The translations under genes were made by a program, and so were the position numbers. The notes beneath the pieces are model-generated. The model saw nothing but the letters and a program-made list of their open reading frames with translations. It made no database searches and was not told where the DNA came from. Positions 8,845 through 63,436 of a stretch of 64,000 bases of DNA are shown here, in pieces (within the stretch, counting starts at the first letter, position 1; each line of letters starts with the position of its first letter). Origin of the DNA: Chloroflexota bacterium. Its GTDB lineage: Bacteria > Chloroflexota > UBA11872. Where the stretch lies: assembly GCA_022826485.1 (NCBI GenBank), contig JAJDUU010000014.1, positions 131,254 through 195,253 of the forward strand. The letters are read 5' to 3'.

Positions 8845-9473
8845 CGATGGTACTCGCGATCGACACCACAGGGACCGCGCCCGCCATGGCGCTGTTGCGC
8901 GGCGACGAGGTGGGGTCCGCCTGGCAGGGCGATGCCGCGCAGACGCCGCTGCTCGACGGGCTGCGCGCCGTGCTCGCCGGCCAGGGTCTGGCGATGCCGG
9001 CACTGCGTGAAGACTTGAGCGCCGTCGCCGCGGCCATGGGCCCGGGCCGCTATGCGCGCCTGCGCGCCGGAGTGGCGTTTGCGAAGGGACTGGCGACCGG
9101 ATGGGGCGTACCCTTCATCGGCGTGCGATCGGCCGCGGCCGTGGCCCATGCCGCCGGCGAACGCGTCGGGCCGATCGTCATCCCGGCCGGGCGCAGCCGC
9201 CTCTATTGCTGGACCGGTGAGCCGGGTGCGCCGCTCAGCCCCGCGGTGGATCCGAGCGCGCTCGTCGACTGCCTTGGATCCGGAGCCTCAGTGGCAGGTG
9301 ACGTCGACGACGCAACGGCGGCGGCGTTGCGGGCTGCCGGGCTGCGACTGAAGCGAATCCAGCCAATCGCGGTCGCCGAGTCCGTGGGCCGCCTCGCCGG
9401 CGGCTGCGATCGATCCGCTGTTGGCGCGGAAGTGGCCCGCCCCATCTATGTCCCGGCGGCCGACCATGGCTGA
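8841..9473 (+). CDS. tsaB: tRNA t6A biosynthesis protein TsaB (inactive Kae1 paralog)
   Basis: The ORF begins MVLAIDTTGTAP... and is the YeaZ-like N-terminal actin-fold domain, placed between tsaE and rimI. Confidence 0.8.
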   Translation: MTMVLAIDTTGTAPAMALLRGDEVGSAWQGDAAQTPLLDGLRAVLAGQGLAMPALREDLSAVAAAMGPGRYARLRAGVAFAKGLATGWGVPFIGVRSAAAVAHAAGERVGPIVIPAGRSRLYCWTGEPGAPLSPAVDPSALVDCLGSGASVAGDVDDATAAALRAAGLRLKRIQPIAVAESVGRLAGGCDRSAVGAEVARPIYVPAADHG

Positions 9474-10077
9474 CGGCCCGGAGATCGTCATCGAGCCGAT
9501 GCAGCTCGCGGACCTGCCCCAGGTGCGCCGCATCGAAAAGGCCTCGTTCTCCGTGCCCTGGCCGCGCGACTCGTATCGACGGGAGATCATGGATAACCAG
9601 CGGGCGTGGTACTTCGTGGCGCGCCGCCCCGACGTGGAACCGCCGCCGCAGCCGCCGCCACGGCGATTCCCCTTCAACCTGTGGCCGCGCGCCCCGGTGC
9701 CGGGCAACGACATCGTTGCGTTCGGTGGGATGTGGCTCATGATCGACGAGTCGCACATCACGACCATCGCCGTCGATCCCGAATATCGCCGGCGTGGGTT
9801 CGCCGAGGCGCTGATCATCGAGATGGCCAAGCTCAGCCGGCTGCGCGGCGCCACGCGCATCACGCTCGAGGTGCGCATGAGCAATCGGGGGGCGCAGAAT
9901 CTCTATCGCAAATACGGCTTCGTGGACCATGGGGTGCGACCGCGCTACTACAGCGACGACCGGGAGGACGCGCTGATCATGTGGAGCGAACCCATCCACG
10001 GGCCGGACTTCCACGCACGCCTCACGCGCAACGAGCGGGATCTTTCGGAGCGCCTCAATTGGGCCGCGCGCCTGTGA
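9466..10077 (+). CDS. rimI: Ribosomal-protein-alanine N-acetyltransferase (GNAT)
   Basis: It has GNAT motif A (RRRGFAEALI) and the LYRKYGF region. It is embedded in the tsa cluster as is usual. Confidence 0.8.
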   Translation: MADGPEIVIEPMQLADLPQVRRIEKASFSVPWPRDSYRREIMDNQRAWYFVARRPDVEPPPQPPPRRFPFNLWPRAPVPGNDIVAFGGMWLMIDESHITTIAVDPEYRRRGFAEALIIEMAKLSRLRGATRITLEVRMSNRGAQNLYRKYGFVDHGVRPRYYSDDREDALIMWSEPIHGPDFHARLTRNERDLSERLNWAARL

Positions 10078-11135
10078 CGGTCACGGACGGGCCGCTGATC
10101 GCCGCGATCGAGACTTCCTGTGACGACACCTCCGTGGCGGTGGTGCGGGGCGGACGCGAGGAGTTGGCGCTCAAGAGCCAGACCCAAATCGAGCCGCACG
10201 CCGCGATGGGCGGCATCGTGCCGGAAGCCGCTGCGCGCATTCACGTCGAGGCCATCGACGCCGTGTGGAACGCGTGCCTGACGACAGCCGGGGTTGACTC
10301 GGCGGAACTTGACGCGCTGGCCGTGACGCAGGGACCGGGCCTCCCCGGCTCACTGCTCGTGGGGCTCGGCTTCGCGCAGGGTCTGGCGGCGGCCGTGGAC
10401 TGCCCACTCATTCCGGTGAACCACCTGGAAGGCCACTTCGCCTCGCCATGGCTCAACGACGGCGATCCGCCGGAGTTTCCGTTGGTGGCGCTGATCGTGT
10501 CCGGCGGCCACACCGAGCTTGTGTTCGGCGCCGCGCCCGGCGAGTACCGGCTCATCGGGCGCACGCGGGACGACGCCGCCGGCGAGGCCTTCGACAAGGT
10601 GGCGCGGATGCTCGGACTGGAATATCCGGGCGGCCCCGCCATCCAGCGAGCGGCGGCGGGACGCGACAGGTCCCCCTTCGAGCTGCCGCGCGCGTGGCTG
10701 CCCGGCACCAGCGACTTCAGCTTCAGCGGACTCAAGACTGCGGTGCGACGGTTGGTTCACGACGAGTTAGGACCAGTCGAGGCGGCGCGGATTGGTGCGG
10801 CGGACAACGGCGCGGCCGGCATCGACGACGCCGACTTCGTGGCGGATGTGGCGCACGCCTTCGAGGTCTCCGTGGTCGACGTCCTCGTGACCAAGACCGT
10901 GCGCGCGGCCCGGCAGATGCGCGCCGCCACGATCACGCTCACCGGCGGCGTGGCGGCGAATGCGAGGCTGCGCGCGGCGCTGGACGCGGCCTCCCCGGTT
11001 CCCGTCCAGGTGCCGGCGCTCAAGCACTGCGTCGACAACGCCAGCATGATCGCGGTGGCGGGCGCTTGGCGCCTGGCGCGCGGCGAGGTGGCGAACGGCC
11101 CGCTCGAACCCGAACCGGGCCTGGCGCTGGCCTAG
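10074..11135 (+). CDS. tsaD: tRNA N6-adenosine threonylcarbamoyltransferase TsaD
   Basis: The translation begins LIAAIETSCDDTSVAVV and contains LAVTQGPGLPGSLLVG and VSGGHT. A GTG start overlaps the rimI stop. Confidence 0.9.
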   Translation: MTVTDGPLIAAIETSCDDTSVAVVRGGREELALKSQTQIEPHAAMGGIVPEAAARIHVEAIDAVWNACLTTAGVDSAELDALAVTQGPGLPGSLLVGLGFAQGLAAAVDCPLIPVNHLEGHFASPWLNDGDPPEFPLVALIVSGGHTELVFGAAPGEYRLIGRTRDDAAGEAFDKVARMLGLEYPGGPAIQRAAAGRDRSPFELPRAWLPGTSDFSFSGLKTAVRRLVHDELGPVEAARIGAADNGAAGIDDADFVADVAHAFEVSVVDVLVTKTVRAARQMRAATITLTGGVAANARLRAALDAASPVPVQVPALKHCVDNASMIAVAGAWRLARGEVANGPLEPEPGLALA

Positions 11136-12579
11136 GAGATTCGGGCGGTCCGCCGGCTTTCGAGCGCCTGACCGTAAAGCTCAAGGTAGGTGCGCGCTGC
11201 GGCGTCCCATGAGGAATCGCGCGACATGCCCCGGCGCATGAGCGCCCACCAGGCATCCGGATAGCGATAGGTCTCCAGCGCGCGGGCAATGGCCCCGAAG
11301 AAGTCGATGGGGTCGTAGCGATGAAACACGAACCCCGTGCCCACGCCGGTTCGCGCGTCGAAGTCTTCAACCGTATCGGCCAGCCCGCCGGTGGCGCGCA
11401 CCACGGGAATGCTGCCGTAGCGCATGGCGATGAGCTGGCCCAGGCCGCACGGCTCGTGGCGTGACGGCATGAGAAAGATGTCCGACCCGCCGTAGATTCG
11501 CTGCGCCAGCGGCGGGTCGAAGCGCAAGGCCAACCCGACGTGGCGGGGATGCTCCCGCGAGGCCTGGGTCAAGAGCTCGTGGTGGCGCGGGTCGCCGGTG
11601 CCCAGCACCGCCAGCTGGGCGCCGCGCTCGACGATGTGGGGCACGACCGGCGCCAGCAGGTCCAGTCCCTTGTGATCGGCCAGCCGCGACACCATGCCCA
11701 GCAGTGGCGTGTCGGCCTCGACGGGCAGCCCAAGCTCGCGCTGCAGCGCCGCCTTGTTGTGCGCGCGCTCCGCCAGGTTCCGCACGCTGAAGGTCGCCGG
11801 CAGATGCGGATCGGATGCGGGGTCGAAGGCGACGGTGTCGATGCCGTTGACGATGCCCGCGATGCCGTCGTGGCGCTCACGCAGCAGCGGGTCCAGCCGT
11901 TCCCCGTATGCCGGCGTCAGGATCTCCCTGGCGTAGGTGGCGCTCACCGTATTGACGGCGTCGGCATAGCGAATCCCGCGGGCGAGAAAATTCAATCGCG
12001 GGGTGAGCTCCGGGTCGGTCGGATGCTCCAGAAACCCGCCCTCCGCGAGGCCCGCCGCTTCCAGGATCTCCTCGCCAAAGTGCCCCTGGTACGCCAGGTT
12101 GTGAATGGTAAGCGCGGTGGCCGGGGAATCGGCGTGGTCCCCGTTGGCGCGCCCGGCGTGAATCCAGTTGGGAACCAGCCCCGCGTGCCAGTCGTGGCAA
12201 TGGACCACATCCGGCTGCCACCGCATCGTTCGCATGGCTTCCAGCGCACCGCGCGAAAAGAAGACGAACCGATGGCCATCGTCGGGATAGCCGTAGAGGT
12301 CGGGCCGGTTAGCGAAGTAGTCGTCGCTGCCGATCAGATACAGCGGAAATGGACATTGCTCGACCAGACCGACCGATCCTCGGCGGGTGACGCCGTTCAT
12401 GGGCACCGCGAACGAGTCGCCCGTAGCTGGAATCGTGGGTATGGCGGGATCGATCGATCCGTAATGCGGCAGCGCCACCCGCACGTCGGCGCCCAGTTTT
12501 CGCAACGCCGTCGGCAAAGACCCGACCACGTCGCCCAGGCCGCCGGTCCAGGCGTAGGGCGTGCACTCGGCGGCGAGCA
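11132..12579 (-). CDS. glgA: Glycogen (starch) synthase, ADP-glucose type
   Basis: The product starts MLAAECTPYAWTGGLGDVV and carries a GT5 C-terminal domain. The N-terminal extension of table ORF 11132..13057 overlaps purH and is not credible. Confidence 0.85.
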
Positions 12580-12612
12580 TCAGCACTCGCAACGGGCGCG
12601 TGTCGGCTTGGC

Positions 12613-14163
12613 TCAATGTTTGAAGTGCCGCTCGTCGGCGAACACCATCACGCCGCCGCGGGCGTCGACGGCGGCCACCACGGCGTCGTCTTCGATCGAG
12701 CCCGAGGGCGCCGCAATGGCCCGCACACCGGCCGCCAGCGCCTCTTCCGGGCCGTCCGTCTTGGGGAAGAAGGCATCGGAGACGAGGTAGCTGCCCGCGG
12801 CCTCGGCGCCGGCATGCGTGACGGCATGACGCACTGCGTCCACGCGGTTCATCTGGCCGACGCCCACGCCAACCAGCATGCCGTCCTTGACGAGCACCAC
12901 CGCGTTCGACTTCACGTGCCGTATCACCCGCAGCCCGAATCGCAACTCCGCCAGGTCCGCGTCGGATGCCGGCATGGCTGACACCGACCGCAGCTCCAGG
13001 TCGTCCCCGGGGCTCCGGTCGGGATCCTGCACCAGATAGCCTCGGTCGAGGCCCCACACGTGGGCCGACTCGAACCGCAGCGGGAGCCTGGCGGGCGGAG
13101 CGGACCAGCGAATGATGCGCAGGTTCTGGCGCCGCCGCAGGCGCCGCAGCGCGTCGTCGGCGTACGCCGGCGCCACGACCACGTGATAGAAGTGGCCCTT
13201 CATCGCCGCGACGGTTTCGATGTCGACTTCGCGGTTGAATCCCACGATGCCGCCGAACGCCGAGAGCGGATCGCCGGCGTGCGCGCTCGCATAGGCCTCG
13301 CGGAGCGAGTCTCGCACCGCGAGGCCGCAGGGATTGGTGTGCTTGACGATGGCGACGGCCGGCCGGTCGTGGTCATTCGCCGCGGCCCAGGCGGCCTGCA
13401 GGTCCAGGATGTTGACGTACGACAGCTCCATGCCGTGCAGCTGCTCGATGCCCGCGAGCGCGCCGTGGCCGAGCTCCGGGTCGCCCGCGGCGTAGAACGC
13501 GCCGCGCTGATGGGGATTCTCGCCGTAGCGCAGGTCCTGCATCTTCTGCAGCGGCACGGTGAGTCGGTGGGGAAAGTCATCGCCCGCCTGCGCCTGGAAG
13601 TACCCGGCCACGTGCGCGTCGTAGAAGGCTGTAAGGGCGAAGGCCTTGGCCGCCAACTCACGCCGCAGATCCCCGCCGTCCGCCCCGCCCTCGATTGCGT
13701 CCAGCACGCGCTCGTAGTCGTCCGGATCGGTGACGGTCCACACGCTGTCGTGGTTCTTGGCGGCGGCGCGAATCATGGCGGGGCCGCCGATGTCGATGTT
13801 CTCGATGAGCTGCTCGTGGTCGTCGGTTCGGGCCAGCGTCGCCGCGAACGGATAGAGATTCACGGCCACAAGGTCGATGGGCGTCAGGCCATGCTCGGCC
13901 AGTTGCTCCCGATCGCTTGCCAGGTTGGGTCTCGCGAGGATTCCGGCGTGAATCGCCGGGTGCAGCGTCTTGACCCGGCCGTCGAACATCTCCGGCCAGC
14001 CGGTCACCTCGTCGATCGACCGCACCGGCACGCCGGCATCCCGCAGTGCCTGGGCGGTGCCCGACGAGGCCACGATTTCCCAGCCCAGGGCGTGCAGACC
14101 CGCGCCCAGGCGGTCGATGCCGCGCTTGTCGGCGACGGCCAGCAGGGCGCGCGGCGCGCTCAT
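12613..14163 (-). CDS. purH: Bifunctional AICAR transformylase/IMP cyclohydrolase
   Basis: This 516-aa ORF is colinear with PurH, with MGS-like and AICARFT domains. Confidence 0.95.
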   Translation of the reverse strand: MSAPRALLAVADKRGIDRLGAGLHALGWEIVASSGTAQALRDAGVPVRSIDEVTGWPEMFDGRVKTLHPAIHAGILARPNLASDREQLAEHGLTPIDLVAVNLYPFAATLARTDDHEQLIENIDIGGPAMIRAAAKNHDSVWTVTDPDDYERVLDAIEGGADGGDLRRELAAKAFALTAFYDAHVAGYFQAQAGDDFPHRLTVPLQKMQDLRYGENPHQRGAFYAAGDPELGHGALAGIEQLHGMELSYVNILDLQAAWAAANDHDRPAVAIVKHTNPCGLAVRDSLREAYASAHAGDPLSAFGGIVGFNREVDIETVAAMKGHFYHVVVAPAYADDALRRLRRRQNLRIIRWSAPPARLPLRFESAHVWGLDRGYLVQDPDRSPGDDLELRSVSAMPASDADLAELRFGLRVIRHVKSNAVVLVKDGMLVGVGVGQMNRVDAVRHAVTHAGAEAAGSYLVSDAFFPKTDGPEEALAAGVRAIAAPSGSIEDDAVVAAVDARGGVMVFADERHFKH

Positions 14164-57283: not shown

Positions 57284-57724
57284 ATGACTGACGACGCAAC
57301 CCCGAACGAGAACTCCCCGGCCGTTCACGCGCCCCTGTCCATCATGCAGTCCGTCATCGCCCGCATGGCCGACGGCAGCCGTTCATGCAAGACCTGGTGC
57401 GTCATCATCATTGCGGCCATCCTGGTCCTCGGCGCGGGCATGACCGAATTCGACCACCTGTGGATCGCCTACGTGCCGCTGATCGTCTTCCTCGGCCTCG
57501 ACATGTACTACCTGGCTCTGGAGCGGCGGTTCAGGGCGTCCTACAACGCCTTCCTGCAGAAGCTCCGCAGCGGCGATGTCACCGCCGAAGACTTATTCGA
57601 GATCACGCCCGCAGGCTCAGCCGCCAAGGCATGGTTCGCGACCCTCGGCTCAATCGCCATCTGGCCCTTCTATCTGGTCCTCGCCGGAGTCATAGCCTTC
57701 GTATGGTGGCAGGTAACGGGCTAA
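57284..57724 (+). CDS. Small integral membrane protein (three predicted TM helices) of unknown function
   Basis: It is an ORF of about 146 aa from the ATG at 57284 (MTDDATPNEN...). It has hydrophobic segments WCVIIIAAILVLGAGM, LWIAYVPLIVFLGLDMYYLAL and LGSIAIWPFYLVLAGVIAFVWW. No family was recognised. Confidence 0.5.
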   Translation: MTDDATPNENSPAVHAPLSIMQSVIARMADGSRSCKTWCVIIIAAILVLGAGMTEFDHLWIAYVPLIVFLGLDMYYLALERRFRASYNAFLQKLRSGDVTAEDLFEITPAGSAAKAWFATLGSIAIWPFYLVLAGVIAFVWWQVTG

Positions 57725-57800
57725 GGTAATGGCTGTGAAGCAGGCGGTCAGGTGCGGCTGCGTTAGGGGCTGAGCGTGCCGTGTGTTTCGTGGTCGTGGT

Positions 57801-57825
57801 TTGCCTGTTTCGTGTTTTCTATAAT
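57801..57825 (+). promoter_or_regulatory. Candidate sigma70-like promoter (ttgcct ... tataat) upstream of the DUF4238 gene
   Basis: A perfect tataat lies at 57820-57825 with ttgcct at 57801-57806 (13-nt spacer, suboptimal). A GGGGAAAGGAG Shine-Dalgarno-like sequence precedes the ATG at 57917. Confidence 0.25.
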
Positions 57826-57916
57826 CGGCCGAAATGTGAGCAGAACAGAACAACCCAGTCTGATGCTCACTCCGAGACGCATATCTGGGCAAAGATCTAT
57901 TGTGGGGAAAGGAGTG

Positions 57917-59030
57917 ATGCAAAACGGGTAAGAAAAGGCAGCATTATGTTCCTAAATTCTATCTCAAGGCATTTCAAAGCGAACCAAGGAGAATCCACAT
58001 CTATAATCTTGAGAGATCGATGCCGATAAGGAGCGTAAGCGTCCGGGACCAATGCCATAAGCCCAACTTTTACGGGGCTGACAATCGCAACGAAGATATG
58101 TTGGGGTTTTTCGAGAATCACATGGCCAGAGTTATCTCATCAATAAATGAAAGCAAAGGTATCCCTAGAGATGGCGATGCGTCTCGTAATCTCCTCTTGC
58201 TTTTTGTGGCCCTTCAATCTATGCGCACCGCTAAAGCCGCTGATCAAGTGGAGCAGATTATGGCAAAGATTAGCGACCGAGTCTATTCCGGTGACCGGAG
58301 AAGTCGGCAAGACTTTGACAGGTCGGATGTGGGAAGAATGTTAGGGGGTTCTGAGAATGCACCTGAGAGTCTGCTTAACTTGGTTCCTGATCTACTCGAG
58401 TCAATTTTAGATCTGAATGCTCATTTGGTGATTTCCAGGAACAATGAATTTCTAGCAAGTGACAACCCGGCTTTTAAGTATAATCAATACTGTGAGGGCC
58501 TTTCGGCCATGGGAACTACCGGCGCAATTAAAAAAGGATTTCAAGTATTTCTGCCAATTTCACCGAGCACTCATTTGGTTCTTTATGATGGATCAACCTA
58601 TCGGGTGAAATCTCGTGATAAGGCATCTTGCGTCAGCACTGCTCAGCAATCTGATATAGAAACCTTGAATATGCTACAGATGGTTTCGGCTGGGATGAAT
58701 GTCTATTTCTCTAACTGGAGCCAAGCTGCAGGTATCGATAAGCTTTACCGAAGCGTTAAGTCAATTCGCGATGCTAATTCGGTGGTTGTTTCTGAATTCG
58801 GTCGTGATGGTGTCGAGAATGAATCTCTAATTCACACCTATGAACAGATGCCGAATCTGTCGCTTGAACTTGGATTTCTACACTTGCGGAGGCGAGCACT
58901 CAGAATACCGCTTCGTGACCGTCACCGACTAATCCGAATGGCGCATGGTGGCAAGTTCACACGCAGGCGTGGACCACATAGTCAGCCGAATGAAGTCGTG
59001 AGATATTCGAGATTCTTAGGTCGAAGCTGA
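57917..59030 (+). CDS. DUF4238 family protein. It appears to need a +1 frameshift near 57920-57930 to join its start codon to the conserved N-terminus, so it is either a pseudogene or carries a sequencing error in a homopolymer run.
   Basis: The frame of table ORF 58020..59030 extends upstream as KRQHYVPKFYLKAFQSEPRRIHIYNLERS, the DUF4238 HYVPxFYLKxF N-terminal signature. That frame has a TGA at 57915 and no start codon. The ATG at 57917 (MQNG*) is in the -1 frame and is preceded by a Shine-Dalgarno sequence. GC is about 45%, against about 69% for the background. Confidence 0.55.
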
Positions 59031-59153
59031 GATTGACAGGATGTCGGCCACGTATATGCGAGGCGGATCATTCTGGGAAAAACGGCCTGAATGTGTGGAT
59101 GGTGACGGATTGGGAGTGTACGCGTTGTTTCGCGTGGGGTAAGGAAGCTAGGG

Positions 59154-62105
59154 CTAGGACGGCAACTCTGGCTCTTTCGCCCCGTGGATGGACGGGTCGC
59201 TGGCGAGGAGGGTGCGGAGGCGGGAGATGGTGGTTAGGGCCTGATCGTCGAGGGCGAGCATGTCGGTGGTGATGCGTTGGTCGAGATCGATGCGGTCGGG
59301 GTCGACGGCGCAGCGGTGGAAGGATTCGAAGGTGCGACCCTGGAAGTCGCGCCAGATGGACTGGGCTTCGTCGAGCTGCCAAGGCTGAAGTTCGCGCACG
59401 TCGAGTGTTGGCAGCGTTTCGAGCATTCCCTTGTTGCCGCGACCTCTTCCGTACTGCGATCTGCTGGCGTGATTGGCGTGGAGCATTAGTCCTGCCGTGG
59501 AGTTGCACCAAAGGGCGAGTGCGACCTCTTGCCGGGAGTGGTTCGCGGGAATGCCCTCTTGGATTTTCATGGAAAACCATTGACTCACGCCGAGCGCCCG
59601 AGCAATGGTTCGGGTCGCCATGATTCGTTGTGAGTTGTACCTGACGTCGCGGGTCATCTGAAGCATGCCGGCCTGGGACCATATCGGCGGATGGTCGCGG
59701 CGATTTGAGGGATAGAGGCGCGCATTTGGCTCAGAGACAAACCCCTGGTGTACTTTCTGCGACTGCGCCCAAAGCGCCGGGAATTGCGCTTGTGCATCCC
59801 ACCCGTGATAGGCGTCGAACGCCCCGAGAGAGCCGCGAATCTGGCGGTCCTGCGGACCTACGTTGCAGACGCTTCCCAGTGGCTCGATAGGAAGCTGGGC
59901 GATGACTCGCGAGCCGTCGGCCGCCCAAAGCTCGCCGCGTTCCAGCGCGGCGGCGAACTGGCCGGTCTGGCCCTGCCGCCAGCGGGAGGCGGCCCACGAT
60001 CTCGCGTCCACCGGCCCGTCCAACAGCTCTCCCCATTGCTCGCCACCGACGATCAAGGGAATACCGCCGATAGGCGGACCGTCGGAGCGGTGCAAGGGCG
60101 CCTCTGCCGCTACATTGATAGCGTTGACCAGCGCCAGTGCGTCGGTGTCGCGATAGGGCGCGCGCCAGAGGTTGACGAACCGGCCCCGGCCCGATGGCGT
60201 CTCGTCTTCGCGCAGTCGACGGGCGACTACTAGGGCCTCGGCAATGTCGGTGTCGTAGGACATCGAGCGCAGCTTGGGATCGTGAGACGAGACTACGAAC
60301 TCAAGCAAGTAGCGGTCGGCGAGCATCTGGCGTACGTCCCGCCATGACTCCCCGGCCAATGCGGTCACCGGCAGCACCAGCGCGACTCGGCCGCCGGGTT
60401 TCACGAGCCGGTCGGCTAGAACGGTGAACGACGCGCCATGCCCTGCCGTCTGGTTGGCCGGCGTGCCCCTAATGAGGTCGGAGGTGCGCCGGGCCACGGC
60501 TTGCTGCGCCTCCGCGTCGCCTGCGGGCAGGTCCAGCACCCGCGCCAGCGCCGCGCCCTTGCCGCCGTCGCTGCCCCGCCGGGTGAAGGGCGGATTGCTG
60601 ATGACCAAGTCAGCGCGCGGCGGTCGAACCTCGTCGCCTGCGCCACCCTTTGCGCCGATTTGTTCGCGCGTGGCTGAGAATGATGATTGGGCTACAGGTG
60701 CTTGCAACCAGTCCAGCGAGCCAAGGTGAATCACGTCTTGGCTCACTGATGGCGCCTCGGGCTCCACGCCGGCCGCTTCGAAGCCTTGCTCGGTGGCATC
60801 GAACACGGATGCTCCCCGCTCCATGCCCATGCGCAGGCTGTGCAGTTGCATTTGGGTGAAGCCCACAGAGGGCGACATGGCGGCAAGCGTGGCGGCGGTG
60901 AGGTGGATGGCGGCCTGCACCACGTCGGCGCCGAATAGGGTGTGCTCGACGAGTGCTTGATGCAGTGCCTCGTCGGTCTCCTGGTTTCCGGCTTCCGCCG
61001 GAATGACGGAAGCCGGCGCGGTCGCGCGGTTTTGGACGATCTGTTGATAGGCCGCCATGAGCAGGGTGCCGGTGCCGCAGGCGGGGTCGACCACGCGCAG
61101 TTGGCTCAGGTTCTCGGCGTCGCTCCAGTCCACGCTCGGCCAGCGTTCCGGCGCTAACGCCAGCCCCGCCAACAAGGTGGCGGCCGGAATGCTGGTGTAG
61201 TAAGCGGCCAGCAGTTTGCGGTCGGCGATCAACCGGTTGAAGATGCGTCCGGCCAGGTCATGGCGACCCACCGCGCCCATGCCCAGCAGTTGCGCGGCGG
61301 TTTCCGCGCACTCTTCCAGCACAGCGGCAGCCTCGACGTCCGAAAGCTCGGACACAACATCGCGGGCCATGCTGAAGATGGGGTAGTAGTCAATGTCGAG
61401 GATGGCGTCCCACATGGTGAGCAGCCGCAAGCGCGAGAAGACGCCATTGCGGCGAGAGGCGCTGGTCGGCTGAATGGCTGCGTCAACACTGGACAGCCGC
61501 TCCTGGAACACCATGGCGTTGGTGACGACCAGCGCGGCCATGTGGGCCACCTCATCGCTCGGCGGTGCGTTGAAGATGCCGGCCACGCGTGCCAGCGTGC
61601 CGGGTGAGCTATAGAGGCGCGAGCCGGCGCTGCGGACGCCATCGTCGAGGACTTTGACCGCTTCTTCGAGGTTGCTGGCCGGTGGGGCGGCTCGCGCCGC
61701 CGCGTTGCCGAGCTCGACGAAGCTGCCACTGACCCTTGGGCCCGCGGTGCCGTCGATCCGCCACTCGCGCCACGTGAGGCTAGCGCCGGCCAGACGTTCA
61801 TAGAGGTGTTGTTGGCTGATTGCACGCAAGTGCACGGGAACGGCGACGGCGGCGGCGATTTGCACGGGCTGGCCATCGATCTCCAGGCCCAACCGCGCCA
61901 GCGCGTCGGCGTCCACGGTGGCCGCCGGTTCGAACTCTATTTCAAGCACGACCGGGCCTTCGGGCCGCCGCAGAACGATGTCCGGTCTGGCAGGTCCGCG
62001 TATGGTCTCGGCGGCCGTTGACAGCCCCAGGCGATCCCTCAGCAGTTGCGCCAGCACGACGTTAATGACTTCTTCTCGGCTGCGTGTGCTGGCGGCGGCA
62101 GTCAT
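59154..62105 (-). CDS. Large single-polypeptide gamma-class N6-adenine DNA methyltransferase with an MmeI-like type IIG/IIL restriction-modification architecture (N-terminal nuclease-like region, MTase, C-terminal putative target-recognition domain). A BREX PglX-like role is not excluded.
   Basis: It has motif I VVDPACGTGTLLMAAY and motif IV LVISNPPF about 145 aa downstream, which gives the gamma order. It also has a post-IV RVALVLP strand and a C-terminal region of about 480 aa with no recognisable enzymatic motif. The N-terminal RPDIVLRRPEGPVVLEIEFE resembles a PD-x(n)-(D/E)xK core with Glu in place of Lys. The ATG at 62105 is favoured over 62183. GC is about 60%. Confidence 0.7.
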   Translation of the reverse strand: MTAAASTRSREEVINVVLAQLLRDRLGLSTAAETIRGPARPDIVLRRPEGPVVLEIEFEPAATVDADALARLGLEIDGQPVQIAAAVAVPVHLRAISQQHLYERLAGASLTWREWRIDGTAGPRVSGSFVELGNAAARAAPPASNLEEAVKVLDDGVRSAGSRLYSSPGTLARVAGIFNAPPSDEVAHMAALVVTNAMVFQERLSSVDAAIQPTSASRRNGVFSRLRLLTMWDAILDIDYYPIFSMARDVVSELSDVEAAAVLEECAETAAQLLGMGAVGRHDLAGRIFNRLIADRKLLAAYYTSIPAATLLAGLALAPERWPSVDWSDAENLSQLRVVDPACGTGTLLMAAYQQIVQNRATAPASVIPAEAGNQETDEALHQALVEHTLFGADVVQAAIHLTAATLAAMSPSVGFTQMQLHSLRMGMERGASVFDATEQGFEAAGVEPEAPSVSQDVIHLGSLDWLQAPVAQSSFSATREQIGAKGGAGDEVRPPRADLVISNPPFTRRGSDGGKGAALARVLDLPAGDAEAQQAVARRTSDLIRGTPANQTAGHGASFTVLADRLVKPGGRVALVLPVTALAGESWRDVRQMLADRYLLEFVVSSHDPKLRSMSYDTDIAEALVVARRLREDETPSGRGRFVNLWRAPYRDTDALALVNAINVAAEAPLHRSDGPPIGGIPLIVGGEQWGELLDGPVDARSWAASRWRQGQTGQFAAALERGELWAADGSRVIAQLPIEPLGSVCNVGPQDRQIRGSLGAFDAYHGWDAQAQFPALWAQSQKVHQGFVSEPNARLYPSNRRDHPPIWSQAGMLQMTRDVRYNSQRIMATRTIARALGVSQWFSMKIQEGIPANHSRQEVALALWCNSTAGLMLHANHASRSQYGRGRGNKGMLETLPTLDVRELQPWQLDEAQSIWRDFQGRTFESFHRCAVDPDRIDLDQRITTDMLALDDQALTTISRLRTLLASDPSIHGAKEPELPS

Positions 62106-62284
62106 GCTCGAATCGTTCTCGACCGCTGTAGTTTCGTTGAGAGTAGTACGCCTGTGCGTGGCTGGGGATAGTCGGGCGGGCAACCACCAGGGTTGCCCCC
62201 ACTCGGACTTGCATGCGAACTGCTTCTAGCCAACGGTGTAGATTCAGCTATGGGAAGCCACGTCATGCGCAAGACGACAGTCCG

Positions 62285-63436
62285 ATGAAATTCTGGTCGG
62301 CGGCGTCGCTGGAGCATGCGCCTGAGGCCATTGCGGCGGACCTGCGGGATCAGGTTCAGGGCGGGGACGACGCGTTGGATCTGGCCGTCGCGTTCGTGCG
62401 GCCGCCGGACAACACCGAAATTACGCCGATCATCGAGGCGGTTCGCCAGGCGCTGCCGGCGCGTCACTTTCTGGCCTGTACGGCCGAGAGCGTGGTGGCG
62501 GCCGGACGCGAGATCGAGGACGAGGCGGCCACGGGGCTGCTGGCGGGCTCGATGCCGGGCGTGCAGATCGACCCGCTGCCGGACCTCGCGGCGCTGCTCG
62601 AGGACGGCGAGGCGGCCGCGGCGCACCTGCGGAGCGCCGCCGCCGTGGTGGCGCTGGTGGACCCCTTCTCGGTGCACACGGAACATTTGGTCGAGCGCAT
62701 GAACGAGCGTGCGCCGGGCGTGCCGCTCATCGGCGGCATCGCCAGTTGGGCGCGCTCGGCGGGCGGCAACCGGCTGGCGAACGGCGACGCCATCACCGAC
62801 CGGGGCGTGGTTGCCGTTGCGCTGCGCGGCGCGGTGGACGTGAGCATCGTGGTTTCGCAGGGGTGCCGGCCCGTCGGCTCGCCGCGCACCGTGACCGGCG
62901 CCAAGGGCAACATCATCACCGAGCTCGACGGGCAGTCGCCGATCGACACGCTGCGGCAGGTGTTCGCCGAGGCCGCCGAAAAGGACCAGGAGCTGATGCG
63001 CGTGGGCGTGATGCTGGGCCACGCGATCTCGACCGACGCCGACGATTGGGGCCGCGGCGGCTTTCTCATTCGCGGCCTGATGGGCGCCGACGCCGGCTCG
63101 GGCGCCCTGGCCGTGACCGGCATCGTGAGCGAGCAGGACACGGTGCAGTTTCACGTGCGCGACGCCGCGACGGCTCAGGAGGACCTGGAGCTGCTGCTCA
63201 CGCCGCAGGCGTTCGAGCCTGAGGCCGCCGGGGCGCTGCTGTTCACCTGCAACGGACGCGGCGCGCGCATGTACGGCCGGCCCGACGGGGATATCTCGTT
63301 GGTGCGCCAGGCGCTCGGCAGCGACGTGCCGGTCAGCGGCTTTTTCTGCGGCGGGGAGCTGGGGCCGATCGGCGGATCGAACTTCGTGCACGGATTCACG
63401 GCGAGCTTGGCGATCTTTCGACCAAAGGCGGGCTGA
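62285..63436 (+). CDS. FIST-domain sensor protein (FIST_N + FIST_C)
   Basis: It is a 383-aa protein with two FIST halves, and its GC matches the genome. Confidence 0.65.
   Translation: MKFWSAASLEHAPEAIAADLRDQVQGGDDALDLAVAFVRPPDNTEITPIIEAVRQALPARHFLACTAESVVAAGREIEDEAATGLLAGSMPGVQIDPLPDLAALLEDGEAAAAHLRSAAAVVALVDPFSVHTEHLVERMNERAPGVPLIGGIASWARSAGGNRLANGDAITDRGVVAVALRGAVDVSIVVSQGCRPVGSPRTVTGAKGNIITELDGQSPIDTLRQVFAEAAEKDQELMRVGVMLGHAISTDADDWGRGGFLIRGLMGADAGSGALAVTGIVSEQDTVQFHVRDAATAQEDLELLLTPQAFEPEAAGALLFTCNGRGARMYGRPDGDISLVRQALGSDVPVSGFFCGGELGPIGGSNFVHGFTASLAIFRPKAG

What the first reader, a model, noticed from the sequence alone, without database searches (positions are those of the whole stretch)
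59154..62105. About 985-aa gamma-class N6-adenine methyltransferase with MmeI-like architecture but Lys-to-Glu replacement in the putative PD-(D/E)xK motif
Motif I (DPACGTG) precedes motif IV (NPPF) by about 145 residues, the gamma permutation typical of type IIG/IIL and PglX enzymes. About 340 residues lie upstream of motif I and about 480 downstream, matching MmeI-family R-M-S fusions in which one chain cuts, methylates and recognises the target. The N-terminal RPDIVLRRPEGPVVLEIEFE aligns with the MmeI D...ExK core but reads D-x12-E-I-E. This suggests an altered or possibly inactive nuclease, either a modification-only or solitary enzyme or a variant catalytic arrangement. No separate methylase, specificity subunit or helicase partner is present.
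Basis: partly seen in the sequence, partly recalled or inferred. Interest (0 to 1): 0.65.

Follow-up and report, generated by a model that had tools for sequence, protein, structure and literature searches.

The report
Single-chain restriction-methylase with BamHI-type nuclease site
This gene most likely encodes a one-protein restriction-modification enzyme (it cuts, methylates and recognises DNA) from a very large unstudied family, and its unusual acidic nuclease motif is the family norm and conserved, so it is probably not a sign of inactivation.

Summary
A confident AlphaFold model shows five domains: PD-(D/E)xK-fold nuclease, helical spacer, gamma-class N6-adenine methyltransferase, target-recognition domain and C-terminal helices. 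This is the order found in MmeI and BpuSI. The best whole-chain structural match is the type IIG enzyme BpuSI.

The D42-x12-E55-x-E57 motif is not a private Lys-to-Glu mutation. It is the majority state of a family with more than 850 clusters at 50% identity. E11, D42 and E55 are invariant. The third position switches only between E and K/R, about 12 times on a tree. ExE co-occurs with a conserved Arg/Lys at position 71. BamHI and OkrAI are active E-D-ExE precedents.

Some relatives encode the nuclease domain as a separate ~200-aa ORF directly upstream of the methylase-recognition ORF. No neighbouring gene is conserved across 82 loci, so this is a stand-alone gene.

Verdict: a new, uncharacterised family of type IIG/IIL-like enzymes with a variant nuclease centre. 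It is not an MmeI-family member by sequence. An inactive nuclease is unlikely, but no biochemical test exists. Interest is moderate.

The parts
59154..62105 (-). Complete CDS, 983 aa plus stop: single-chain nuclease-methyltransferase-recognition protein
   Evidence: Identical to public protein P0001. AF2 model has pLDDT 87 and pTM 0.89.
61677..62105 (-). N-terminal PD-(D/E)xK-fold nuclease domain (residues 1-143), topology alpha-beta-beta-beta-alpha-beta
   Evidence: Domain model has pLDDT 94. Foldseek matches are mostly PD-(D/E)xK nucleases, among them R2 RLE, AF1548, Hjc, the BpuSI nuclease domain, Cas4, McrC, NucS, HincII and RecB. All are weak, with E from 7e-3 to 0.8.
61935..61982 (-). 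Catalytic signature D42-x12-E55-x-E57 (DIVLRRPEGPVVLEIE). D42 sits just before strand 2; E55 and E57 lie in strand 3.
   Evidence: D42 and E55 are invariant and E57 is the majority residue in diverse relatives.
61101..61676 (-). All-helical spacer (residues 144-335)
   Evidence: Secondary structure of the model. MmeI has an equivalent spacer at residues 156-300 (PMC4833311).
60156..61100 (-). [quoted passage not shown]
   Evidence: Pfam N6_Mtase, MmeI_Mtase and UPF0020 hits. Eco57I hits in 32 of 50 relatives. PDB profile hits to BrxX/PglX, BsaXI, DrdV and BseCI. Fold hits.
61068..61088 (-). SAM-binding motif I, DPACGTG (residues 340-346)
   Evidence: D340, G344 and G346 are invariant across the family.
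60585..60596 (-). Catalytic motif IV, NPPF (residues 504-507)
   Evidence: N504, P505 and P506 are invariant.
59556..60155 (-). Alpha/beta target-recognition-like domain (residues 651-850)
   Evidence: Model. CamA and M.BseCI, which are MTases with a C-terminal DNA-recognition domain (prior knowledge), superimpose over almost their whole length: TM normalised by target 0.60-0.67, about 710-745 alignment columns.
59157..59555 (-). C-terminal helical domain (residues 851-983)
   Evidence: Helices 853-974 in the model. MmeI has a C-terminal helical bundle after its TRD.

Best explanation
The gene encodes a stand-alone, single-polypeptide restriction-modification enzyme of the type IIG/IIL kind. 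It belongs to a large, uncharacterised family. The steps below marked 'inferred' rest on analogy with BpuSI and MmeI.

1. The C-terminal recognition domain and the gamma-class methyltransferase domain clamp a specific DNA sequence (inferred).
2. With S-adenosyl-methionine, the NPPF site methylates an adenine in host copies of that sequence. The motifs are shown to be intact; the activity is inferred.
3. On unmethylated foreign DNA, the N-terminal PD-(D/E)xK-fold domain, held at a distance by the helical spacer, cuts the DNA at a fixed offset from the site. It probably acts after pairing with a second enzyme molecule (inferred).
4. The nuclease centre is a BamHI-type all-acidic variant: E11 on helix 1, E33, D42, and E55-x-E57 on strand 3. 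The usual lysine is absent. A conserved Arg/Lys at position 71 on the second helix may supply the positive charge (inferred from co-variation only).
For: Architecture:
- The AF2 model is confident (pLDDT 87, pTM 0.89) and shows five domains in the MmeI/BpuSI order.
- The best whole-chain Foldseek match is the type IIG enzyme BpuSI (E=1.5e-17, about 1110 alignment columns). BrxX/PglX, CamA, DrdV, M.BseCI and BsaXI follow.

Nuclease domain:
- The domain model has pLDDT 94, with D42 just before strand 2 and E55/E57 in strand 3. This is the canonical placement (PMC3424549).
- Its fold matches are mostly PD-(D/E)xK nucleases.
- E11, N15, D42 and E55 are invariant in relatives about 30% identical.
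- The third motif position is E in 91 and K/R in 21 of 115 aligned sequences, and almost never anything else. It changes about 12 times on a tree built from the non-nuclease part.
- ExE goes with R/K at position 71 in 85 of 91 cases. ExK/R goes with a non-basic residue there in 16 of 21 cases (Fisher p=1e-10, not corrected for phylogeny).
- BamHI (E77, D94, E111, E113) and OkrAI (E71, D86, E99, E101; the same D-x12-ExE spacing) are active enzymes with Glu at the last position (PMC3025578).

Modularity: in L088, L090, L094 and L095 a ~200-aa ORF homologous to the nuclease domain (hhalign E from 5e-9 to 2e-16) directly precedes a ~750-aa ORF that starts at the spacer.

Methylase: D340, G344, G346, D394, N504, P505 and P506 are invariant.

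Solitary gene and mobility:
- No neighbouring gene family occurs in more than 6 of 82 loci within 4 kb.
- The family spans many phyla, with two or more paralogues in several genomes, and occurs occasionally on plasmids and viral contigs.
Against: - No member of the family has been characterised. Sources call them 'hypothetical protein', 'N-6 DNA methylase' or 'DNA methyltransferase family protein'.
- Outside the MTase core there is no sequence match to any Pfam, NCBIfam, PADLOC or PDB entry.
- Fold matches of the nuclease domain are individually weak; none has E<0.001.
- In BamHI, EcoRV and EcoRI, swapping E and K at this position nearly abolishes cleavage. Either the ExE or the ExK members here could therefore differ in activity.
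- The recognition domain diverges at about the same rate as the other domains. There is no hypervariable specificity region. This fits MmeI-like enzymes but is not positive evidence for sequence-specific restriction.
Confidence: 0.68

Rival explanations
1. It is a modification-only (orphan) DNA adenine methyltransferase. The N-terminal nuclease-fold domain has lost cleavage activity because the catalytic lysine is replaced by glutamate, and it survives as a structural or DNA-binding module.
For: The canonical Lys is absent. K-to-E swaps inactivate EcoRV and EcoRI (PMC3025578). The gene is solitary, as orphan methylases are.
Against: E11, D42 and E55 are invariant across more than 100 representatives about 30% identical, and the third position is held to E/K/R. 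A dead site would drift. The ExE pattern with the same D-x12-ExE spacing is catalytically active in OkrAI, and ExE is also active in BamHI. Split forms keep a separate intact nuclease ORF next to the M-S ORF.
Confidence: 0.12
2. The nuclease-fold domain is active but not as a classical double-strand restriction nuclease. It could be a nickase, a modification-dependent sensor, or a cutter that acts only after oligomerisation or translocation. The system would then work differently from BpuSI/MmeI.
For: The best fold matches of the isolated domain are the R2 retrotransposon endonuclease and Holliday-junction resolvases, not type II REases. The all-acidic centre plus the co-varying Arg71 is unusual.
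Against: All those matches are weak, and the BpuSI nuclease domain is among them. The whole-chain architecture is that of type IIG/IIL enzymes.
Confidence: 0.1
3. It is one component of a multi-gene defence system: BREX/PglX-like, MADS-like, or working with the adjacent DUF4238 and PDC-M50A-like genes.
For: There are weak PglX and MAD2 model hits and PglX/BrxX is a strong fold match. The gene lies beside a candidate defence gene (PDC-M50A, E=9e-26) and a low-GC DUF4238 gene.
Against: The PglX and MAD2 hits cover only the MTase core and score 11-29 bits against cut-offs of 400-900. No neighbouring gene family is shared by more than 6 of 82 loci. In a 77%-identical relative at the same locus, DUF4238 is replaced by DUF1828+DUF6978. 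PglX lacks an N-terminal nuclease domain (prior knowledge).
Confidence: 0.07
4. It methylates RNA or protein, not DNA.
For: NPPF/NPPY motifs also occur in RNA and protein methyltransferases. There are weak UPF0020/RlmKL-like, MTS and METTL5 hits.
Against: All 50 listed whole-chain fold matches are DNA adenine methyltransferases or R-M enzymes, and CamA and M.BseCI superimpose over almost their whole length. The protein is fused to a nuclease-fold domain.
Confidence: 0.03

Closest known systems
RM.BpuSI (type IIG/IIS restriction-modification enzyme, PDB 3s1s)
   Same: Best whole-chain structural match (E=1.5e-17). It is also a single chain with an N-terminal PD-(D/E)xK nuclease, helical connector, gamma-class N6-A MTase and C-terminal TRD (PMC3185434). 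Its nuclease domain is among the matches of the isolated N-terminal domain.
   Different: Only 11% identity. BpuSI has PD-x15-ExK with the canonical Lys, whereas this protein has PD-x12-ExE. This protein has an additional C-terminal helical domain, as MmeI does.
MmeI / DrdV (type IIL family)
   Same: Same five-domain order with similar boundaries. MmeI: nuclease 1-155, spacer 156-300, MTase 301-620, TRD 621-825, helical bundle 826-919 (PMC4833311). DrdV is a significant fold match. Relatives are similar over the whole length, with the TRD diverging at the same rate as the rest.
   Different: The Pfam MmeI N, helical, TRD and C models do not match. MmeI_Mtase scores 20.2 bits, below its 27-bit cut-off. 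MmeI uses D70...E80-x-K82.
BamHI / OkrAI nuclease active site
   Same: All-acidic E...D...E-x-E catalytic signature. OkrAI (D86, E99, E101) has the same D-x12-ExE spacing as D42/E55/E57, plus an upstream Glu.
   Different: BamHI and OkrAI are small homodimeric type IIP enzymes with a separate methylase. No sequence or significant fold match to them was found here. The resemblance is in the motif only.
PglX/BrxX (BREX methyltransferase)
   Same: Strong fold match over the MTase and flanking domains and the best PDB sequence hit to motif I.
   Different: PglX has no N-terminal nuclease domain (prior knowledge) and works in a BREX operon. No BREX genes lie nearby. NCBIfam BREX models score 11-22 bits against cut-offs of 400-900.

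Membership tests
Type IIG/IIL single-chain R-M enzymes (kind, not a sequence family) | One polypeptide carrying nuclease, gamma-class N6-A methyltransferase and target-recognition domains in that order | tested here: met
   AF2 model. Foldseek best match is BpuSI; DrdV also matches. Domain boundaries compare well with MmeI.
Type IIG/IIL single-chain R-M enzymes (kind, not a sequence family) | N-terminal domain with PD-(D/E)xK fold and catalytic D...(D/E)xK residues | tested here: inconclusive
   The fold and the placement of D42, E55 and E57 fit. The Lys is replaced by Glu, as in BamHI and OkrAI. Fold matches are weak (E>=7e-3) and the residue geometry was not measured.
Type IIG/IIL single-chain R-M enzymes (kind, not a sequence family) | Intact SAM-binding motif I and NPP[FY] motif IV | tested here: met
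   DPACGTG and NPPF are present and invariant in the family.
Type IIG/IIL single-chain R-M enzymes (kind, not a sequence family) | Functions alone, with no separate M, S or helicase partner | tested here: met
   No neighbouring gene family occurs in more than 6 of 82 loci within 4 kb. Window neighbours are unrelated to R-M.
Type IIG/IIL single-chain R-M enzymes (kind, not a sequence family) | SAM-stimulated cleavage at a fixed distance from an asymmetric site, with methylation of that site | not testable with these tools
   This needs biochemistry or methylome data.
MmeI family (Pfam MmeI_N, MmeI_hel, MmeI_Mtase, MmeI_TRD, MmeI_C) | Significant matches to the MmeI domain models | tested here: not met
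   Only MmeI_Mtase matches, at 20.2 bits against a 27-bit cut-off. It matches in 11 of 50 relatives. The N, hel, TRD and C models do not match.
BREX PglX | Score above the NCBIfam PglX cut-offs and a BREX operon context (BrxA/B/C, PglZ, BrxL) | tested here: not met
   Scores of 11-22 bits against cut-offs of 400-900. No BREX neighbours.
MADS MAD2 methyltransferase | Score above the NF047738 cut-off (720 bits) | tested here: not met
   29 bits, covering the motif I region only.
BamHI-like restriction endonucleases (Pfam PF02923) | Sequence or fold match to BamHI/OkrAI | tested here: not met
   No Pfam hit. BamHI and OkrAI are not among the top 50 fold matches. Only the E-D-ExE pattern is shared.

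The most novel reading that the evidence does not exclude
This may be a very large, previously unrecognised family of type IIG/IIL-like restriction-modification enzymes: more than 850 clusters at 50% identity, concentrated in Chloroflexota/Dehalococcoidia, often with several paralogues per genome. Its nuclease centre has switched repeatedly (about 12 times) between an all-acidic BamHI-type ExE form and the canonical ExK form. A compensating basic residue appears or disappears on the neighbouring helix (R/K71), or helix 1 changes from Glu to Gln. If both forms cut DNA, one fold tolerates an E/K exchange that abolishes activity in BamHI, EcoRV and EcoRI. The family would then be a natural experiment on how the general base and charge of PD-(D/E)xK sites can be relocated, and a source of new specificities.
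Probability: 0.45. Interest if true: 0.5.

Novelty: new variant of a known kind. Interest (0 to 1): 0.36.

Why it matters
If the enzyme is active, it would extend the rare Glu-for-Lys nuclease centre. A 2010 paper reported that centre only in BamHI, its isoschizomers and BtsCI. It would now also occur in single-chain type IIG/IIL enzymes.

It would also define a big unannotated R-M family that current defence-system and protein-family models reach only through the MTase core. Defence inventories of Chloroflexota, including what appear to be sponge-associated lineages, may therefore be undercounting it.

The fused, split, ExE and ExK variants provide ready-made comparisons for studying active-site plasticity. 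The MmeI-like whole-length conservation suggests specificities that might be engineered. In itself, though, it is another restriction-modification enzyme, not a new kind of system.

Tried and rejected
- Pfam, NCBIfam and PADLOC scans of the protein and of 50 relatives matched only the MTase core. Nothing matched the N-terminal, spacer or C-terminal regions.
- Sequence and profile searches of the PDB matched the MTase core only for the whole protein. The N-terminal profile gave nothing meaningful.
- Two alignment-wide scans failed on the size limit and were repeated with 50 sequences.
- Model coordinates are not exposed, so the distances between catalytic residues could not be measured.
- All-against-all clustering of ORFs in 82 loci looked for a conserved partner gene and found none. 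The top clusters were shadow ORFs inside the gene itself.
- Membership of BREX, MADS and the MmeI family was considered and rejected on scores and context.
- A hypervariable specificity region was looked for and not found. All domains diverge at similar rates, also between paralogues in one genome.
- The promoter and terminator scan around the gene gave nothing above the shuffled expectation.
- A literature search for a described member in sponge or Chloroflexota defence papers found none.
Full report
**Observation.** The minus-strand ORF 59154-62105 encodes 983 aa from the ATG at 62105. A 1009-aa TTG extension is possible, but homologues begin at the same Met and an identical 983-aa protein is on record (P0001). 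Translation of the exact coordinates confirms the quoted motifs:
- D42-x12-E55-I-E57 (DIVLRRPEGPVVLEIE, 61935-61982).
- DPACGTG at residues 340-346.
- NPPF at residues 504-507.

There are 339 residues before motif I and 476 after NPPF, as stated. The gap between the two motifs is 157 residues rather than about 145. The window is about 69% G+C, so long ORFs arise easily, but this one has very many full-length homologues, so it is a real gene.

**What the libraries say.** Only the methyltransferase core is recognised. Pfam gives N6_Mtase (27 bits), MmeI_Mtase (below cut-off) and UPF0020. PADLOC gives weak hits to type I/II MTases, MAD2, PglX and type IIG models, all confined to the regions around motif I or NPPF. 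NCBIfam gives 11-29 bits against cut-offs of 350-900. The PDB has no sequence relative of the single protein. A family profile reaches only the MTase motifs of BrxX/PglX, BsaXI, DrdV, M.BseCI and type I M subunits. Public sources call family members 'hypothetical protein', 'DNA methyltransferase family protein' or 'N-6 DNA methylase'.

**The family.** The word-indexed search found 1014 proteins with E<=0.001 among the candidates it scored, and the best 120 were essentially full-length at 63-100% identity. The exhaustive search of 50%-identity representatives found 851 clusters with E<1e-30. Most are 930-1010 aa and align end to end at about 30-35% identity.

In species-representative genomes at least 454 loci encode relatives. 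The best 80 are mostly Chloroflexota/Dehalococcoidia MAGs. Others are Caldilineaceae, Latescibacterota, Poribacteria, Binatia, Verrucomicrobiota orders, Bryobacterales, Hydrogenedentota and Rhizobium terrae. Several genomes carry two or more paralogues. A few members lie on plasmids and on IMG/VR viral contigs. This patchy, multi-copy, mobile distribution is typical of defence genes (prior knowledge).

**Structure.** With a 50-sequence alignment, AlphaFold2 gave a confident model (pLDDT 87, pTM 0.89). Its secondary structure divides into five parts:
- an alpha-beta-beta-beta-alpha-beta domain (residues 1-143);
- an all-helical region (144-335);
- an alpha/beta Rossmann-type region holding motifs I and IV (336-650);
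- a mixed alpha/beta region (651-850);
- a helical C-terminus (851-983).

MmeI is described with the same order and similar boundaries: nuclease 1-155, spacer 156-300, MTase 301-620, TRD 621-825 and helical bundle 826-919 (PMC4833311). In Foldseek against the PDB the best match is the type IIG enzyme BpuSI (E=1.5e-17, about 1110 alignment columns). BrxX/PglX, CamA, DrdV, M.BseCI, a type I M subunit and BsaXI follow. CamA and M.BseCI superimpose over almost their whole length (TM normalised by target 0.60-0.67). The region after the MTase core is therefore a DNA-recognition domain of the usual kind. All listed matches are DNA adenine methyltransferases or R-M enzymes, which argues against an RNA or protein substrate.

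**The nuclease domain.** Residues 1-145 modelled alone give pLDDT 94. D42 lies immediately before strand 2 (43-45). E55 and E57 lie in strand 3 (52-58). E11 is on helix 1. This is where the PD-(D/E)xK superfamily places its Asp, its Glu-x-Lys and the frequent helix-1 Glu (PMC3424549).

Foldseek matches of this domain are individually weak (best E=7e-3, none below 1e-3). Most of them, and nearly all of the best-ranked ones, are PD-(D/E)xK nucleases: the R2 retrotransposon endonuclease domain, AF1548, Hjc resolvases, the BpuSI nuclease domain, Cas4 (SSO0001), McrC, EndoMS/NucS, SfsA, HincII, the tRNA-splicing endonuclease, Bax1 and RecB. That criterion is not met.

**Is the Glu an inactivating replacement?** No. 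Across relatives only about 30% identical, E11, N15, D42 and E55 are invariant and E33 is nearly so. Among 115 aligned N-terminal regions, mostly distant representatives, the third motif position is E in 91 and K or R in 21, with almost nothing else. On a neighbour-joining tree built only from the non-nuclease part of the proteins, this position changes state about 12 times.

The state co-varies with other sites:
- ExE is accompanied by Arg/Lys at position 71, at the end of the second helix, in 85 of 91 cases.
- ExK/R is accompanied by a non-basic residue there in 16 of 21 cases (Fisher p=1e-10, not corrected for phylogeny).
- In one divergent clade, ExE pairs with Gln at position 11 and ExK with Glu at position 11.

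A position that is allowed only E, K or R, and that changes together with charged neighbours, behaves like a working catalytic position and not a decaying one. There is also precedent. BamHI (E77, D94, E111, E113) and OkrAI (E71, D86, E99, E101; the same D-x12-ExE spacing) are active enzymes with Glu at the last position. The same 2010 paper notes that this is rare among restriction enzymes, and that E/K swaps in BamHI, EcoRV and EcoRI nearly abolish cleavage (PMC3025578). The idea that R71 supplies the relocated positive charge is an inference. Comparable migrations of catalytic residues to the second core helix are documented. I could not measure distances in the model.

**Split forms.** About 13 of the 150 listed representatives begin at query residue ~185, and so do two viral-contig matches. 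In all four cases examined (L088, L090, L094, L095), a 197-229-aa ORF lies directly upstream. It either overlaps the start of the 746-768-aa ORF by a few bases or ends within 15 bases of it. That ORF is homologous to the nuclease domain (hhalign E from 5e-9 to 2e-16) and carries PD...ExK or PD...ExR. The nuclease module is therefore kept as a separate gene when it is not fused. This fits an R plus M-S division of labour. It argues against a vestigial domain.

**Context.** In the window the gene is flanked by three genes:
- a divergent FIST-domain gene (62213-63436);
- a convergent DUF4238 gene (58020-59030);
- a small membrane protein that matches the PADLOC candidate PDC-M50A.

Clustering of all ORFs from 82 loci found no gene family near the methylase in more than 6 loci. 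A HigB/HTH toxin-antitoxin pair recurs only in a few close relatives. In a 77%-identical relative at the same chromosomal site, DUF4238 is replaced by DUF1828+DUF6978. The enzyme therefore acts without a conserved partner.

**Mechanism proposed.** Shown here: the five-domain architecture, intact SAM and NPPF motifs, a conserved acidic cluster on a nuclease fold, and a stand-alone gene. Inferred by analogy with BpuSI and MmeI: the TRD and MTase bind an asymmetric site, an adenine is methylated for self-protection, and the spacer-tethered nuclease cleaves unmethylated DNA at a fixed offset, probably as a dimer. I put this at about 0.68. The remainder is split among an orphan methylase with a dead nuclease (0.12), a non-classical use of the nuclease domain (0.10), a component of a multi-gene system (0.07) and a non-DNA substrate (0.03).

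**Comparison and novelty.** The protein works like a type IIG/IIL enzyme. It is not a member of the MmeI family by the Pfam domain models, and it is not PglX or MAD2 by score or context. The resemblance to BamHI and OkrAI is limited to the active-site pattern. The family is uncharacterised and is not captured by current family or defence libraries beyond the MTase core. I rate it a new variant of a known kind, with moderate interest of 0.36. What remains interesting is the family-wide E/K switching with compensating changes, and the size of the family.

Noticed in passing
window 57724-59154 (compare L002 12943-14469): The stretch between the 3' end of the methylase gene and a conserved 146-aa membrane-protein gene is a swappable cassette. 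The window carries a DUF4238 gene (58020-59030) at 46% G+C in a 69% G+C genome. A 77%-identical relative carries DUF1828+DUF6978 at the same place, while both flanks align well. It looks like a defence-island hot spot with recent horizontal acquisition.
   Followed up: partly
window ~57284-57724 (+): A small two-transmembrane-like protein (146 aa from the ATG; listed as a 177-aa TTG ORF from 57191) matches the PADLOC candidate defence family PDC-M50A (E=9e-26). It is 83% identical in the relative L002. Its variable neighbours (DUF4238, or DUF1828+DUF6978) may be its partners.
   Followed up: partly
L088 4369-7205; L090 4367-7280; L094 655-3508; L095 77-3070: These are natural split versions of the family. 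A ~200-aa nuclease-domain ORF (ExK or ExR type) directly precedes a ~750-aa spacer-MTase-TRD ORF. The two ORFs abut or overlap by a few bases. Two of the four lie on IMG/VR viral contigs.
   Followed up: yes
L040, L068, L020, L022 (gene at ~10000-12900 in each): In 4 of 82 loci the gene is broken into two ORFs. These are frameshifts, stops or assembly errors, and possibly decaying copies.
   Followed up: no
L012 (1251-4175 and 9977-12832); L061 (917-3742 and 9995-12916); paired loci on OZ252215.1, OZ251484.1, OY764155.1, OZ253467.1, OZ253578.1, OZ253587.1, CBDESO: Two or more paralogues occur per genome, sometimes within 6-9 kb of each other, at 24-40% identity in every domain. One pair is about 75-85% identical.
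   Followed up: partly
L003, L006, L007, L008, L018 (~9200-9950): A HigB-like toxin and HTH antitoxin pair sits immediately upstream of the methylase gene in a group of close relatives.
   Followed up: no
window ~62175-62197: There is an inverted repeat, GGGCAACC-N4-GGTTGCCC, in the 107-bp divergent intergenic region between the methylase gene and the FIST gene. It could be an operator or a hairpin.
   Followed up: no
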